Assembly (NCBI GenBank): GCA_965285935.1
Contig: OZ260666.1
Coordinates: 51,088,001 to 51,152,000, forward strand
Source of the DNA: Ophelia neglecta
Lineage: Eukaryota
Direction: 5' to 3'
Length of the DNA: 64,000 bases
Positions 1 to 63,000 of the stretch are shown piece after piece. Made by a program: the position numbers. The first letter of the stretch is position 1. The number at the start of each line of letters is the position of its first letter.

Positions 1-3000
1 GCTATCTTTGTGTTGGCCCAGGTAAAATCAAATTTCTAAAGGACAAGAACACTTTGGTCAATCAGGGCCCAGACTTTCTTAGCAGTCCCTCCCTCAACAC
101 TCGTATCATGGGATGATCACCCACTTGGGGTGCACGCTTCACGAGTGTTGAAAACAATCCCAGTCTTAGGCAATGGTCATTGCTTGATATTTTCAAAAGA
201 ATTTCAAAGACATAGACTAATTATTTAAATTTGCTTAAGATTTGTAATGTCTTAATATGTACATTTCATCAGTGGGAGGGTCCGAGAGATCCCTGGACAG
301 ATCACACCCTTATCTATATTTTAAATTAATTACATAGATATCCCATCTCATTTTAATATTATTTCGACTGTACTTGTTTCTATATGGTTACAGCACTTTT
401 CTGTGCATTAGAATTGTTTGTATTTTGTGAACTATAAGTGCTAATATTAAATTATACACAATAAACTCATCCTTATTGATGAGAGATGTTTAATGTGACA
501 AGCAAAATATAAAAAATGACTGTGCAGAGAGCATATAACTCACAGCATATACACTTCTTAATTTGATGTCATCTCTTCTGTCTTTTGTGTTTTCGGGCAG
601 TGGTTTGGAAGGAGACCGCCTGATCTTAGACCCATCTTCATTCACCTGATCAACAAATTGAAAGACATTATATGCTTTGGACTTAGAAGTACATGTATTA
701 CCATTCAGTAGGTTTATTTGCATATCATGTAAACATTTCTGTGAATCTAGTGTTAGTTAATTTGGTCCAATAAACAATTTCTACATAACATAAATATAAC
801 ACGATACATGCACATTTTAAGCACTACAGGAATTTCTTATCAAAGTACAATGAACTATATACCTCCATGAGCTTTGAACTAGACTTTTTCAAAGCTTCTG
901 TGATTATTTTAGTGTCATTGGAGATCTCTGCCAGACGTTTAAATTTTAGCATGGTTTCCATAGAAACCCCTTGGAATAGTTAAGGATACCACTTGAACAT
1001 TATACAAATCAGTAGATGTATTTAATTAGAACTAGTGACATGATAAATACTAAACTAGAATGAACAATTGAAAACAAAGTGTTTAGAGGAGCAGGTAAGG
1101 ATCATTATCCAATGATGATCCATTTATTTGCCAAAAGGTATGTTCCAACTTTGTATGGACCCTGCTCCCAAATAGCCAGGCCTTTGGAGGCATTCAGGGC
1201 ATGGATAAAATCATTTAAAAATATGCTGTGGGTAAAACATAAACATTCGGCTTGGCATCATTGAGTAAACCTTGATTTAACCATTAGTATAGTATTTTGT
1301 ATTGTGTACAATATGTACATGTGTTAAGACATAAAAGGATACATCCTTCTTCTTTTTTGGCTTCTTCTTGCAGAAATTTGTCACGGGCAAGATTAATGTC
1401 ACCAAAATAGTACTGAAAAAAAAAATTACAATATAATAAGAATACATGCAATTAAGGTAATTACCATTTTTGAAGATAACTAGATAGGGTAACCCTGTGT
1501 AACGTCCCCCGGCTATAACCAACAGTTGGGGACATCTCTTGATTTGCCATGGCTATAAGGGGTACCCAAAATAAATAAATCTGTTTAAACTAACCAATAG
1601 TTGTACAGGTTAGAGAGTAATCCTTAAAGCTATACAAGTTCTGTTTCCATGGTACCTAAATATGTCTAGAATTTTTGCTAATGACATCACCAGCTATGGA
1701 ACATTTTGCCTCACCATAATACCCATGGAGTCATTTACCTGGGGATGCCAATAACCAGTTTCACATCAACATTTACAACCAAATTAGCCAAGGGGATGAT
1801 TCGACCTTGAAAAAAAAGGCCAAGCTCCAATTCAAGGTCAATGATGGTACCCTATACTGCATTTTTGAATATATCATAGGCAATTTTAAACTAGTAATTA
1901 TACACTTGGGGTGTGGATAATACACAGAAGCTAAACTTCTCAAGTTTTCTAGTGGACAGATTAGCTAAAATTGTGCCGGTGTGTGATACTGGAGTGAATT
2001 GTCCATTTATCACAACAGGGTCAAAAAAATTCAATAAAGTGATATTATCGCAAAATGCTGCAAAAATCGACAGGCTCACAGTTAATTTGGCTGATTAATC
2101 CCCCAATATTGATCTCAAATCAAAAGACAGCTGCGGACTATTGCAAAGAATCCCATAAAGTTATGAAATTATCCCCAAAATAGTTTAAGAGATGTTGCAT
2201 CAAGAACAAATCTTGTCCACCACATTGTGGCAGCCATCTTGGTTTTCCAATCAGTCTAATAATCTTATAATTTTGTGTCTCCCTCTGCAAAAAAACACTC
2301 CTATGAAGTAGCACAGAAACTGCACTTTTATTGACTTATATCTGATCAAACCTTACCAATGAACCGACCACCTGACTATATGATGCTTTTAGTTGCTTTG
2401 AAGCAGAGGTCTAAAAACTGCAAGGGTATGCTTTTATCACAGAAAAAAGGTAAATAAGTTTTGCACCCCATATTGTTTTTTATGAATGATGCTCGAAAAG
2501 AGTCCCATGCCAGTTTTCAGCATATGCCTTAACAAAAGAATGAAAAACTTAAAGTGTCTTATCATGTGACAAAAAATGAGGATGAAAGAGTTTAATGAAA
2601 AATGTTTCCCTTCTAAGTATGGGGGATATAACAAAATAACATTCAATGATTTACATCAAAGTTATTTTTTTAATAACTAACTTCAACTTGTTTAATAATT
2701 TTTTTCTCCAGGGCTGTTGGGACTTCAACTTCCTTTTTCACTGACGGGACTTCAACTTCCTTTTTCACTGACGGGGCTGTTGATTCCCTCTCCACTGATG
2801 GGAATGTTGATTCTTTTTTCAATGATGGGGATGTTGGTTCCTTTTTCATTGAAGATTGCTCCTCCATTGATGGGGATGTTGGTTCCTTTTTCACTGAAGA
2901 TTGCTCCTCCACTGATGGAGGTGTTGCTTTCTCTTCCACTAAAGCAGCCGTTGATTCTCCATTGGCTTCAGCCATAATGATCAATTCGTTTAGAGGCAGA

Positions 3001-60000: not shown

Positions 60001-63000
60001 ATAATTTTGAACAACAATATCTTTAAATGTTTTTGAAAAAGATAGTAATGATCCACACCAATAACTTTTCAGTTGTGCAAGAAATGGTTCACAAGATATC
60101 CTTGGGCTATAAGTTTGCAGTGACCATTTTCTCTAGCGCAGATGGTTAAAAGTAGAAATAAGGGAACATAGCTAGTGACTAAGAGATGAGAAACTGACCT
60201 GAAGCCACGTCAGTGGTGGGCGATCGAAGCTGAGTGGTAGGAGCCATTTTCTTGTCGCCGTTTTCTGTGGTGTTGATCAACTGCTGGTGGAACATGTTTA
60301 TCTGATATCCATGAGGAAATAGACCTCAGCAGCACTGAAAATGTAAGAAACCCTTAACAACTGGACAATATAAACCTATGGATCTGACCCGCAGCACACG
60401 TGAGGGCTGGGTGCTGTGGGTTGGTGGTTGGAAATACAAGAGAAACACCCAGAAGGCATCAAATTTCAAAGATTCAAAGAAAAAAGTTTAAGAAATAATG
60501 AATTTCTTTGCATTTGAATAGCTATTATGTAAAACAAGGCAATTAGAGAAGTAAAACCCACCTTTTAAAAAGTATAATAAATGTGTCTGTCATAAAGTTA
60601 TCTCCTGAGAACACATGTATAAATAAAGTACGAACTTAAAGAGACCCTTCTTTAACACCACTAGAAATGTCCAGAAATGCAAAAGAAAGTGAACTTATTT
60701 TTAATACAAAAACTATAACAGGCCAAATAAAGCATAACCCCTGAAAAAATCAGTATAGCCCTCATGATCAGCAAGCCCGGAGGACACCACAAATCACAGG
60801 CACTTTTTTAATTAATGTGCCAAAATAATAATGACGATCTCTAATTTTAATAAATCAAAATTATATGATTCGTGTACTTACACAAAGATATGTGCAGATC
60901 ATTCCATTCTGTCTTTTTTACCGCTTATCACATCATGGTTTTTCTGTCATCATCCTGCAGAAAAATATATATCTTGTTAAAAATTGCAGAACATTAACAA
61001 GATATTTCCAAGGCACCAAACTAAGGGTCAGTGCTGGAAAATAATGTTGACGTTTTTTTTCTGAGTTTTGCATTATGCTTTTAAAATGGATGAGATTTAT
61101 TTGCAACTGACAGGTCCGAATGTTATAAACAAGAACAACAGTCGAGGTACATAAAGACTAATACAATTTAATTAGACATTTTATATTGATGGTTCATGCA
61201 GTGGTATATATTTGGGAAAACTGCTTGTCAGATCTACGTGACAAGTATCTGTGGGAATATTTTAAATGCAGACAAAGTTATGTTTGAATCTGAGAAAAGA
61301 CAGTAATGCCTAGTTCTGATGTTCTAGGGTCTGATGTAACTTTTAAAACCTACTTGCCCGAAACTTTCAGCTTTGTTCAGATAAGACACATGTAAATGGA
61401 GCTGAAATTCACTTTCCCAGTCAGTTGGGCATTGGCTTACATCACATCCTGTGTTTGGTGCAAGTCAACTCACTGCCCAAGGACTAATTAATTTAAAATC
61501 TCCCAATGTGCATCAATGAGCAATAACTCTGGAATACTTAAGTACAGGTGATCTCACCATACGCAGACCCCAATATATATGTGATGTGTGTATCAGAGCC
61601 AGGGGACTGATGTAGGGTATAACCAATAGCCTGAACACTGCCAGCATGACCTGCTTTCATGATGTTATGTAATACCTCAAGTCTTACACACTTGGTCAAT
61701 GCAAAATTGATATCCTGCCAAGTTAATCTGCTGGTGACATTTATACCACAAAGTACTTGCATTGTTTCTGCAGCATTTCTGAACCCATAAACCAGATTTG
61801 TAAGCATAAATTGTATCCCAATAAGTTCTTTCTCAACAGCTACAAATATGTTACATAAATTTAGTAACTTTAAGATGCTTAACACAGATCAGCCGGTGGA
61901 GCTTTCAGATTTCAGACCCAGGGGCTATTAATGAGCATAACCAAAAGGTGAACAAATCTATATCCAAATAGCCTGATATTTGGAAATCATGTTACATACA
62001 TATATGTAAATTGTGTTAAGAATAGTAATGATATAAGTAGGTGAGTTACTAGGTAAGTTATATCTGTTCAGAAGACTATGGACAGCAACAAGGACATGGT
62101 AAGCATGTCATGACTAGATAGTGGAGGACTGTATGTTGGGTGACATAAAGGGTCATGACCCCTGGCTAGTTGGAGAATTCCTATTAGGTAATTCTTACAC
62201 CAGATGGATGACTGTGGTTGAAAATCCCCTACATCAACAACCTGTAGCTACAAGTCACTGCCAAAATGGAGTTAGTGGCCCAATCGAAATATCATGGTTT
62301 GCTAATGTCAGGTGCATTTGAACAGAGCTATGGTCATTGTAGCTTGGTGTTAATACATCCATACACATCCCAGGACAAACACAAATCCCATCAGGTCAAG
62401 AGCAAGCTTGCAGCGTTACAAAATTATTGGCTAACAATGGAAAAAACTCAACAAAATTCAATGGTCTCACTTTTAGAACTATTTACTACTGAAAAGTTAC
62501 AGTCCTCCCCCCCCCCCCCACACACACACACACACTTCAACCCTAAACAGAGGTCATAGCAAGGTCAAGTCAGGCCATCTGACCTATGAAGTGACCTTGA
62601 ACAGGCCACTGACATGAAAGGGAGGAAAAGGGTTGTCACATATGACCTTATTTGAAATCGGTAGTGCTGGGTCAAGACAAGCACCTGAAAGCAAGTCTGA
62701 TCCCTTTGGAAGTAAACACAGAGGCAGGAAGTGATCAAGCCATTAAGATGCAGGTGTTTATAGGAATACTACCCCAGATAGCACAAAGCCTTGGCCCAAC
62801 ATTTGGCCAGCATGGGACAGTGCTACCTTGGAAGCGGGTGACCGAGGAACACCTGAGAGTCGGTGCCCAGACATGTAGCATTCCATAACCACTAGGGAGT
62901 GTCAAGTTGTGGTATATTGGGACTTTTTTTGTGAGCACACAACAACAGATTTGATTTGGATGTACCTAGTCTAGCTGTATCACTTCTGAATTATTCGATA

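What the first reader, a model, noticed from the sequence alone, without database searches (positions are those of the whole stretch)
544..60295. CDC6-RAR adjacency and a block of Hox-paralogon genes: ancient bilaterian microsynteny
Seen: CDC6 and RAR are immediate, convergent neighbours. Established: human CDC6 is the direct neighbour of RARA (17q21.2, same strand). PHB1 (17q21.3), SSB and CWC22 (2q31), and RPS26 and RARG (12q13) all lie in HOXB/HOXD/HOXC regions. Inference: six of eight genes derive from the ancestral Hox-bearing linkage group, and the CDC6-RAR pair may date from the protostome-deuterostome ancestor, with a local inversion. Shared regulatory elements could explain its retention.
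Basis: partly seen in the sequence, partly recalled or inferred. Interest (0 to 1): 0.7.

Follow-up and report, generated by a model that had tools for sequence, protein, structure and literature searches.

The report
CDC6 next to RAR: ordinary synteny
An invertebrate (probably annelid) genome piece really has the replication gene CDC6 lying tail-to-tail with the retinoic acid receptor gene as in humans, but seven other worms and molluscs do not share this, so it looks like normal chromosome-level conservation rather than a specially preserved gene pair.

Summary
The window carries eight genes: La/SSB, PHB1, a CHST3-like sulfotransferase, RPS26, CWC22, a beta-tubulin nested in a CWC22 intron, CDC6 and RAR. 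CDC6 (+, 47135-50484) and RAR (-, 55910-59894) are immediate convergent neighbours, 5.4 kb apart.

- **Same chromosome:** using contig lengths as scaffold fingerprints, RAR and CDC6 share a chromosome in 9 of 10 chromosome-scale lophotrochozoan assemblies. That is ordinary macrosynteny.
- **Not adjacent elsewhere:** they lie on different scaffolds in 7 of 7 scaffold-level assemblies (two annelids, five molluscs). The adjacency is therefore not a conserved lophotrochozoan feature.
- **Hox linkage:** the vertebrate Hox paralogon is a vertebrate-stem fusion of three bilaterian linkage groups (B1, B2, B3), and only B2 carries Hox. In Pecten maximus, RAR and CDC6 sit on the smallest chromosome, while Hox is reported on HiC_scaffold_2.
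- **Regulatory block:** CDC6 here is compact, with its largest intron about 330 bp, which is unlike a regulatory bystander gene.

My reading is conserved linkage-group membership plus an unconstrained juxtaposition. A lineage-specific origin is slightly more likely than a neutral relic. Selection for a shared regulatory block is unlikely. Interest is low. A direct survey of gene order in animal genomes could not be run with these tools.

The parts
544..2975 (-). La/SSB gene, 5' part only (four exons: about 2975-2682, 1412-1344, 970-860, 657-544). The rest lies beyond the window start.
   Evidence: ORF translations. Pfam La domain at E 5e-7. All 6 PDB hits are Lupus La protein. ATG at 2975-2973 checked by coordinate. 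Exon ends were derived by hand from the ORF listings.
5098..7945 (+). Prohibitin-1 (PHB1), six exons
   Evidence: ORFs. Band_7 on three exons. PDB: Prohibitin 1 at 97 bits against Prohibitin-2 at 67 bits. ATG and TAG checked.
12683..14464 (+). CHST3-like carbohydrate sulfotransferase. The 5' exon with the start codon was not found.
   Evidence: Sulfotransfer_3 and Sulfotransfer_1 on the 307-aa exon. The nearest Atlas cluster is 'carbohydrate sulfotransferase 3-like', score 0.97.
19557..20116 (+). Ribosomal protein S26, two main coding exons. The first-codon exon and the extreme C-terminus were not placed.
   Evidence: Ribosomal_S26e at E 2e-29 and 2e-19, covering profile positions 2-60 and 61-103.
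23509..44219 (-). CWC22 splicing factor, spanning at least 20.7 kb. The 632-aa last exon carries an Arg/Ser/Glu-rich repeated tail. The 5' end was not located; it may reach about 44,890.
   Evidence: ORFs. MA3 domain. Human CWC22 at 101 bits, E 5e-28. Stop codon at 23511-23509. 51-nt x 9.4 repeat.
34649..37947 (+). Beta-tubulin gene nested on the opposite strand in the roughly 12-kb CWC22 intron between exons at about 40,850 and 28,897
   Evidence: Tubulin at E 2e-36 and Tubulin_C at E 7e-45. ORFs. ATG checked.
47135..50484 (+). CDC6. The N-terminal disordered exons lie at 47135-48068. Further exons lie at 48251-48430, 48604-48792, 48906-49022, 49129-49290, 49623-49793, 49910-50119 and 50242-50484.
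   Evidence: Pfam AAA_16, Cdc6/ORC lid and Cdc6_C. Human CDC6 at 69 bits against ORC1 at 36. 262 homologues, of which 120 are listed and none is named ORC1. Colinear tblastn HSPs. ATG and TAA checked.
50485..55909 (.). CDC6-RAR spacer, 5.4 kb, 33% GC, with no recognisable gene. A 53-nt x 2.9 tandem repeat at 55752-55905 lies just 3' of the RAR stop codon.
   Evidence: Pfam on the 10 longest ORFs found nothing below E 0.04. Length, GC and poly(A)-signal positions. Repeat. No Rfam family.
55910..59894 (-). Retinoic acid receptor (NR1B). Exons lie at about 59876-59700, 59449-59264, 59096-58953, 58535-58362, 57989-57807, 56962-56729, 56438-56250 and 56023-55910. Further 5' exons are possible but were not found.
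   Evidence: zf-C4 and Hormone_recep. Best PDB hit is 6eu9, the Platynereis RAR (82-88 bits), then the human RAR alpha, beta and gamma chains, then thyroid receptor at 32-46 bits. The identity of 6EU9 comes from PMC5821490. Colinear HSPs to four annelid-type RARs. The stop codon follows the AF-2 region.

Best explanation
The window is a gene-dense piece of a lophotrochozoan, probably annelid, chromosome. Its genes belong to one of the three bilaterian ancestral linkage groups (B1, B2 or B3) that fused on the vertebrate stem into the proto-chromosome that gave the four Hox-bearing regions. That explains why six of the eight human orthologues lie near HOXB, HOXC and HOXD. It is the ordinary, already described conservation of chromosome-scale linkage.

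Within such a linkage group, gene order is scrambled. The CDC6-RAR tail-to-tail adjacency seen here is not kept in other lophotrochozoans and shows no sign of being held by selection. I take it as an unconstrained juxtaposition, most likely one that arose in this lineage by rearrangement within the chromosome. It would then resemble the human CDC6-RARA adjacency by coincidence.

Shown: gene identities, order and orientation; co-chromosomal location in other species; separation onto different scaffolds in seven species. Inferred: which linkage group this is, and whether the adjacency is lineage-specific or a relic.
For: - **Gene identities and anatomy:**
- **Same chromosome-scale contig for RAR and CDC6 in 9 of 10 lophotrochozoans:** Liolophura, Owenia, Gigantopelta, Pecten maximus, Pinctada, Mytilus trossulus, Mercenaria, Lineus and Dreissena. 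The exception is Pomacea. The shark Mustelus also shows the same contig. P is about 2e-9 to 7e-8.
- **Different scaffolds in 7 of 7 scaffold-level assemblies:** Capitella, Lamellibrachia, Mizuhopecten, Lottia, Elysia, Physella and Aplysia. If the genes were 10-20 kb neighbours, the joint probability of seven separating breaks would be 2e-11 to 3e-9.
- **Nearest relatives lack the adjacency:** the closest relatives of the window's RAR and CDC6 are Capitella and the siboglinids, and two of those three (Capitella and Lamellibrachia) could be compared and lack it; Ridgeia had no CDC6 row.
- **Scrambled gene order:** PMC8809688 (passages) reports gene order scrambled within ALGs, adjacency nearly all lost between phyla, and CLG_B as B1+B2+B3 fused on the vertebrate lineage.
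- **Chance blocks are common:** PMC4085046 (passages) expects 157 chance blocks against 469 observed blocks shared between a protostome and a deuterostome. About one third are therefore chance even for blocks of three or more genes.
- **Orientation differs from human** (the human orientation is recalled).
- **Compact CDC6:** it spans 3.35 kb and its largest intron is about 330 bp.
Against: - **Low chance probability for one pair:** a chance adjacency of one named pair within a scrambled group of 500-1500 genes has probability 0.13-0.4%. For any of the seven neighbour pairs in the window it is 1-3%. Coincidence is not cheap.
- **Side is conserved:** in both human and this window, RAR lies beyond the 3' end of CDC6.
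- **Distances unknown:** Some of them may have the adjacency.
- **Fingerprint assumption:** the contig-length method assumes that each listed length is the scaffold that carries the gene in a single assembly. The Aplysia pair (2,058,894 vs 2,071,611) and the Pomacea pair (45,418,568 vs 45,157,847) are similar in length and are the weakest rows.
- **Untested lineages:** no deuterostome invertebrate (amphioxus, echinoderm, hemichordate) or priapulid could be examined.
Confidence: 0.5

Rival explanations
1. Neutral relic. CDC6 and RAR were already neighbours in the protostome-deuterostome ancestor. The pair survived by luck, without selection, on the vertebrate line and on this animal's line. One gene was inverted locally. 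The pair was broken in molluscs and in the Capitella and siboglinid lines.
For: - The pair is adjacent here and in human (order from PMC4123879; direct adjacency recalled).
- The two genes share a linkage group across phyla.
- Chance adjacency of a named pair has probability of only about 0.1-0.4%.
- About two thirds of the protostome-deuterostome shared blocks in PMC4085046 exceed the chance expectation.
Against: - The adjacency is absent in 7 of 7 testable lophotrochozoans, including two of the three named species closest to the window (Capitella and Lamellibrachia; Ridgeia had no CDC6 row). This needs at least two or three independent losses.
- Only two lineages show the pair, whereas the published standard for an ancestral pair is four or more lineages (PMC3514665).
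- The orientation is not conserved.
- It is a pair only, not a block of three or more genes as defined in PMC4085046.
Confidence: 0.38
2. This is an ancient adjacency kept by selection because regulatory DNA of the developmental gene RAR lies in or around the bystander gene CDC6, forming a genomic regulatory block.
For: - The pair has the right make-up: a developmental transcription factor next to a housekeeping gene.
- It is adjacent in two distant lineages.
- 29% of published conserved pairs have this make-up (PMC3514665).
Against: - A constrained pair should persist widely, yet 0 of 7 testable lophotrochozoans keep it on one scaffold.
- Bystander genes are marked by many long introns (PMC3514665). 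CDC6 here spans 3.35 kb and its introns are at most about 330 bp.
- The genes abut 3' end to 3' end, so CDC6 lies downstream of RAR, far from its promoter.
- The 5.4-kb spacer is AT-rich and contains a tandem repeat.
- No paper found mentions the pair.
Confidence: 0.07
3. Assembly artefact: a misjoin brought CDC6 and RAR together.
For: None specific. The window comes from one assembly of unknown quality.
Against: - There is no N run in 64 kb.
- Composition is even across 50-56 kb.
- Both genes are complete, with intact terminal exons facing each other.
- The flanking genes belong to the same vertebrate paralogon.
Confidence: 0.02

Closest known systems
Human 17q21.2 segment THRA - CDC6 - RARA - TOP2A
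   Same: CDC6 and an RAR gene lie side by side, with RAR beyond the 3' end of CDC6. Order from PMC4123879; direct adjacency recalled.
   Different: In human the two genes are co-directional (recalled), whereas here they are convergent. No TOP2, THR or NR1D gene appears in the window: the 3.7 kb beyond RAR holds no recognisable ORF. On the other side of CDC6 lies CWC22, which maps to 2q31 in human (recalled).
Bilaterian ancestral linkage groups B1/B2/B3 and the vertebrate proto-chromosome CLG_B (Simakov et al. 2020, 2022)
   Same: Genes whose vertebrate orthologues lie in the Hox paralogon sit together on one invertebrate chromosome. RAR and CDC6 are co-chromosomal in 9 of 10 lophotrochozoans.
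   Different: CLG_B is a vertebrate-stem fusion, and only B2 holds Hox. Which of the three groups this window belongs to is not known. The scallop data argue against B2.
Conserved ancestral microsyntenic pairs and genomic regulatory blocks (Irimia et al. 2012, PMC3514665)
   Same: It is a non-paralogous neighbour pair made of a developmental transcription factor and a housekeeping gene, seen in a protostome and a deuterostome.
   Different: The pair is seen in two lineages, not four or more. It is absent in seven lophotrochozoans. The orientation is not kept. The putative bystander gene is compact. The list of 595 pairs is in a supplement I could not open.

Membership tests
Retinoic acid receptor (NR1B) | C4 zinc-finger DNA-binding domain plus a nuclear-receptor ligand-binding domain, closer to RARs than to other NR1 receptors | tested here: met
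   zf-C4 on two exons and Hormone_recep on three. The top 20 PDB sequences for two LBD exons are all RARs (49-88 bits), and thyroid receptor comes next at 32-46 bits. Identity is 57-73% over 7 HSPs to the RAR proteins shown; P0148 is lowest at 56.1%.
CDC6 (not ORC1) | AAA+ core, Cdc6/ORC lid and C-terminal winged helix; no BAH domain; closer to CDC6 than to ORC1 | tested here: met
   Pfam. Human CDC6 at 69 bits against ORC1 at up to 36 bits. Of 120 listed homologues, none is named ORC1. The N-terminal 224-aa exon has no Pfam domain.
Conserved ancestral microsyntenic pair (CAMP) | The same two non-paralogous genes lie within four or fewer intervening genes in four or more major metazoan lineages | tested here: inconclusive
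   Two lineages are positive: this window, and vertebrates (plus recall). 0 of 7 scaffold-level lophotrochozoans have the genes on one scaffold. Cephalochordates, ambulacrarians and priapulids could not be tested. Distances in the nine chromosome-scale species are unknown.
Conserved ancestral microsyntenic pair (CAMP) | Relative orientation kept across species (typical of co-regulated 5'-5' pairs) | tested here: not met
   The pair is convergent (3'-3') here and co-directional in human (recalled).
Genomic regulatory block | A bystander gene with extensive intronic sequence that can house enhancers of the developmental gene | tested here: not met
   The CDC6 coding span is 3.35 kb and its largest intron is about 330 bp. 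For the criterion see PMC3514665.
Genomic regulatory block | Conserved non-coding elements or enhancers in the bystander gene that act on the developmental gene | not testable with these tools
   No animal genome collection and no chromatin data were on hand.
Bilaterian ALG macrosynteny | Orthologues share one chromosome across phyla far more often than chance | tested here: met
   RAR and CDC6 share a chromosome in 9 of 10 lophotrochozoans and one shark.
Hox-bearing linkage group (ALG B2) | The Hox cluster lies on the same chromosome as the window's genes | tested here: inconclusive
   The window holds no Hox gene, and the rest of its chromosome is unseen. In Pecten maximus, RAR and CDC6 lie on the 32,483,354-bp chromosome, which is the smallest of 19. 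Hox is on HiC_scaffold_2 (PMC7191990). In the Japanese scallop it is on PYE1, where names are sorted by size (PMC11175523). This suggests different chromosomes, but I did not see a table that ties scaffold names to lengths.

The most novel reading that the evidence does not exclude
CDC6-RAR is a true linkage more than 550 million years old, dating from the protostome-deuterostome ancestor. It was retained in vertebrates and in this annelid-like lineage because part of the RAR regulatory landscape extends over CDC6. It was released in molluscs and some annelids after regulatory rewiring. It would then be a new lineage-patchy regulatory block around a key developmental receptor.
Probability: 0.07. 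Interest if true: 0.45.

Novelty: already known. Interest (0 to 1): 0.2.

Why it matters
If the adjacency were ancestral and constrained, it would add a deep regulatory block around the retinoic acid receptor and tie RAR regulation to a replication gene across Bilateria. The evidence instead shows the expected picture. Chromosome-level linkage is conserved, gene order is scrambled, and membership of the vertebrate Hox paralogon does not imply linkage to Hox in invertebrates. The useful lesson concerns method. A gene pair shared by two lineages inside one linkage group is weak evidence. Lists of human paralogon genes over-state Hox linkage, because the vertebrate Hox chromosome is a fusion of three older units.

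Tried and rejected
- **Accession numbers and locus tags:** Distances therefore stay unknown.
- **Locus tags visible in names:** Pinctada FSP39_002535 vs FSP39_024975 cannot be positional, since both genes lie on one chromosome. I did not use them.
- **Six-frame Pfam scan of the spacer:** I replaced it with the 10 longest ORFs. A further 10 intergenic ORFs were scanned. Nothing was found.
- **Locating exon ends by typed peptides:** I stopped that step and derived coordinates by hand from the ORF listings, checking them by coordinate.
- **Literature:** five searches for CDC6 with RAR/RARA/raraa and synteny terms gave 0 relevant papers. The main texts of Irimia 2012, Simakov 2013 and the Platynereis RAR paper contain 'cdc6' 0 times.
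- **Other scans:** Rfam gave no family.
- **RAR 5' exons:**
- No whole-protein search, tree, fold or complex prediction was made for the window's own genes.
- **Collections:** Genome contigs holds only bacteria and archaea and was not used.

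
Full report
**What is in the window.** The 64-kb window has 37% G+C and no N. I read stop-to-stop ORFs in all six frames and tested single exons, one at a time, against Pfam and against the sequences of solved structures. No whole-protein search, tree or fold was therefore made for the window's own genes.

Eight genes are present.

| Gene | Strand | Coordinates | Notes |
|---|---|---|---|
| La/SSB | - | 2975 down to 544 | Only the first four exons; the rest runs off the window start |
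| PHB1 | + | 5098-7945 | Prohibitin 1 at 97 bits against Prohibitin-2 at 67 |
| CHST3-like sulfotransferase | + | about 12683-14464 | |
| RPS26 | + | about 19557-20116 | |
| CWC22 | - | 23509 to at least 44219 | Human CWC22 at 101 bits |
| Beta-tubulin | + | 34649-37947 | Inside a 12-kb CWC22 intron |
| CDC6 | + | 47135-50484 | See next section |
| RAR | - | 55910-59894 | See next section |

Twenty further long ORFs from the spacers have no Pfam match of note. The count of eight genes stands.

**CDC6 and RAR.**
- The CDC6 exons carry the AAA+, lid and winged-helix domains.
- The Walker-A exon matches human CDC6 at 69 bits and ORC1 at 36 bits or less.
- A 56-residue exon found 262 homologues. 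Of the 120 listed, none is named ORC1.
- The RAR exons carry both zinc fingers and the ligand-binding domain.
- For two ligand-binding exons, the first 20 distinct PDB sequences are all RARs. The best is 6eu9, which PMC5821490 (passage) identifies as the Platynereis dumerilii RAR. Thyroid hormone receptors follow at 32-46 bits.
- Local tblastn with stored homologues maps seven colinear CDC6 exons and seven to eight colinear RAR exons.

The two genes are convergent. Their stop codons are 5,425 bp apart, in AT-rich DNA (33% G+C) with no recognisable gene.

The closest named relatives of both genes are annelids. For RAR, Capitella is 72.6% identical and the siboglinids 66-68%. For CDC6, Capitella is 61% and Lamellibrachia 62%. 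The source is therefore probably an annelid that is not close to any named genome. It is not human.

**Testing synteny without an animal genome collection.** However, the protein searches print the length of the contig that carries each hit. I used that length as a fingerprint of the scaffold.

Seventeen lophotrochozoan species have both an RAR row and a CDC6 row with contig lengths. Batillaria was dropped because its RAR row has no length. Sturgeon and lungfish were dropped because their listed RARs are the beta and gamma paralogues.

In the ten chromosome-scale assemblies, the two lengths are identical in nine:

| Species | Contig length (bp) |
|---|---|
| Liolophura sinensis | 25,057,479 |
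| Owenia fusiformis | 39,792,004 |
| Gigantopelta aegis | 42,253,053 |
| Pecten maximus | 32,483,354 |
| Pinctada imbricata | 46,969,939 |
| Mytilus trossulus | 63,222,996 |
| Mercenaria mercenaria | 64,330,741 |
| Lineus longissimus | 16,292,257 |
| Dreissena polymorpha | 90,528,778 |

They differ in Pomacea (45,418,568 vs 45,157,847). The shark Mustelus also shows one chromosome for RAR alpha and CDC6. Under a generous null of 1 in 12, nine of ten has P of about 2e-9. The chromosome numbers behind that null are recalled.

In the seven scaffold-level assemblies, the lengths differ in all seven:

| Species | RAR scaffold (bp) | CDC6 scaffold (bp) |
|---|---|---|
| Capitella | 279,544 | 93,057 |
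| Lamellibrachia | 490,537 | 204,574 |
| Mizuhopecten | 359,575 | 1,012,329 |
| Lottia | 324,059 | 794,502 and 9,070 |
| Elysia | 311,544 | 335,456 |
| Physella | 427,214 | 352,738 |
| Aplysia | 2,058,894 | 2,071,611 |

If the genes were 10-20 kb apart, a scaffold end would fall between them with probability 0.5-21% per species, and 2e-11 to 3e-9 jointly.

There are caveats. The method assumes one assembly per species. The Aplysia and Pomacea pairs have similar lengths and are the weakest rows.

**What this means for the microsynteny claim.** RAR and CDC6 belong to one conserved linkage group, but they are not neighbours in two annelids and five molluscs. The adjacency is thus not a conserved lophotrochozoan feature.

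- Simakov et al. 2022 (PMC8809688, passages) state that order within linkage groups is scrambled and that adjacency between phyla is almost wholly lost.
- Simakov et al. 2013 (PMC4085046, passages) found 469 protostome-deuterostome blocks against 157 expected by chance. About a third are therefore chance, even for blocks of three or more genes.
- Irimia et al. 2012 (PMC3514665, passages) required four or more lineages to call a pair ancestral.

Here, two lineages are positive. The human order THRA-CDC6-RARA-TOP2A is given in PMC4123879 (passages). That the two human genes are direct neighbours on one strand is my recollection.

A chance adjacency of one named pair in a scrambled group of 500-1500 genes has probability 0.13-0.4%, and any of the window's seven pairs has 1-3%. 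Coincidence is unlikely for one window but expected many times over a whole genome. Weighing these figures, I put a lineage-specific juxtaposition at about 0.5, a neutral relic at about 0.38, a selected regulatory block at about 0.07 and an artefact at about 0.02.

**What this means for the Hox claim.** RAR is an accepted member of the vertebrate Hox paralogon (PMC2566581, passages).

PMC8809688 explains that CLG_B, the proto-vertebrate chromosome behind that paralogon, groups amphioxus chromosomes 10, 16 and 18. Their homologues fused and mixed only on the vertebrate lineage, and they correspond to distinct scallop chromosomes (ALGs B1, B2, B3). Hox lies in B2 (PMC11175523, section 11; PMC11789643, passages). 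Lying in the human Hox paralogon therefore does not place an invertebrate gene on the Hox chromosome.

In Pecten maximus, the RAR/CDC6 chromosome is 32,483,354 bp. Kenny et al. (PMC7191990, passages) give that as the smallest of the 19 chromosomes. They place Hox at 28.8-30.6 Mb of HiC_scaffold_2. In the Japanese scallop, Hox is on PYE1, with names sorted by size. This suggests that RAR and CDC6 are not on the Hox chromosome in scallops. I saw no table linking scaffold names to lengths, so this stays an inference. Whether the window's own chromosome holds Hox cannot be told from 64 kb.

**The regulatory explanation.** The pair has the make-up of a regulatory block: a developmental factor beside a housekeeping gene. 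The bystander genes of such blocks are marked by many long introns. CDC6 here spans 3.35 kb, and its largest intron is about 330 bp. The genes abut 3' end to 3' end. The pair is also lost in seven relatives. I found no paper that mentions the pair. The main texts checked contain 'cdc6' 0 times. The supplementary lists that could settle this are closed.

**Verdict.** The block reflects known chromosome-scale conservation. The Hox-linkage wording over-reaches. The CDC6-RAR adjacency is at best a two-lineage candidate without signs of constraint. A gene-order survey of annotated animal genomes would decide it.

Noticed in passing
window 34649-37947 (+), within the CWC22 intron spanning about 28,900-40,850: A complete five-exon beta-tubulin gene is nested on the opposite strand inside a 12-kb intron of CWC22.
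   Followed up: partly
window 23512-25407 (-), repeat at 24350-24911: The last CWC22 exon is a 632-aa open frame rich in Arg, Ser, Glu and Asp. It holds about nine 17-residue tandem repeats (51 nt x 9.4, 84% matches) and has no Pfam match. This is a long repeated tail.
   Followed up: partly
window 2682-2975 (-), repeat at 2823-2944: La has an N-terminal extension of about 98 residues before the La motif, built partly of 15-residue repeats (45 nt x 2.7). I recall human La starting almost at the La motif.
   Followed up: no
window 57188-57724: A 45-nt x 11.9 tandem repeat (87% matches) lies in the RAR intron between the exons ending at 57807 and starting at 56962. It is open in frames on both strands (187-aa and 158-aa ORFs) but lies between mapped exons, so it is presumably non-coding.
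   Followed up: no
window 55752-55905: A 53-nt x 2.9 tandem repeat lies directly 3' of the RAR stop codon, in the likely 3' UTR.
   Followed up: no
window 44219-47135: CWC22 (-) and CDC6 (+) are head to head, with less than 2.9 kb between their known coding exons. A Ser/Asp-rich ORF at 44741-44893 (-) may be a further CWC22 exon. A shared promoter region is possible.
   Followed up: no
protein P0129: An entry named 'Retinoic acid receptor alpha [Heterocephalus glaber]' scores among the lophotrochozoan RARs (635 bits, against about 550 for vertebrate RARs). It is 63.5% identical to the window's exons. It may be a contaminant contig in that mammalian assembly.
   Followed up: no
protein P0005: The Mytilus coruscus CDC6 entry (770 aa) gives 130 bits to a 56-residue query and 12 HSPs on the window's CDC6. 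This suggests an internal duplication or a merged tandem model.
   Followed up: no
protein P0096: A 1069-aa duck 'CDC6' entry also carries a WH2 domain (PF02205). It is probably a gene model merged with the neighbouring gene, which I recall as WIPF2 in vertebrates.
   Followed up: no
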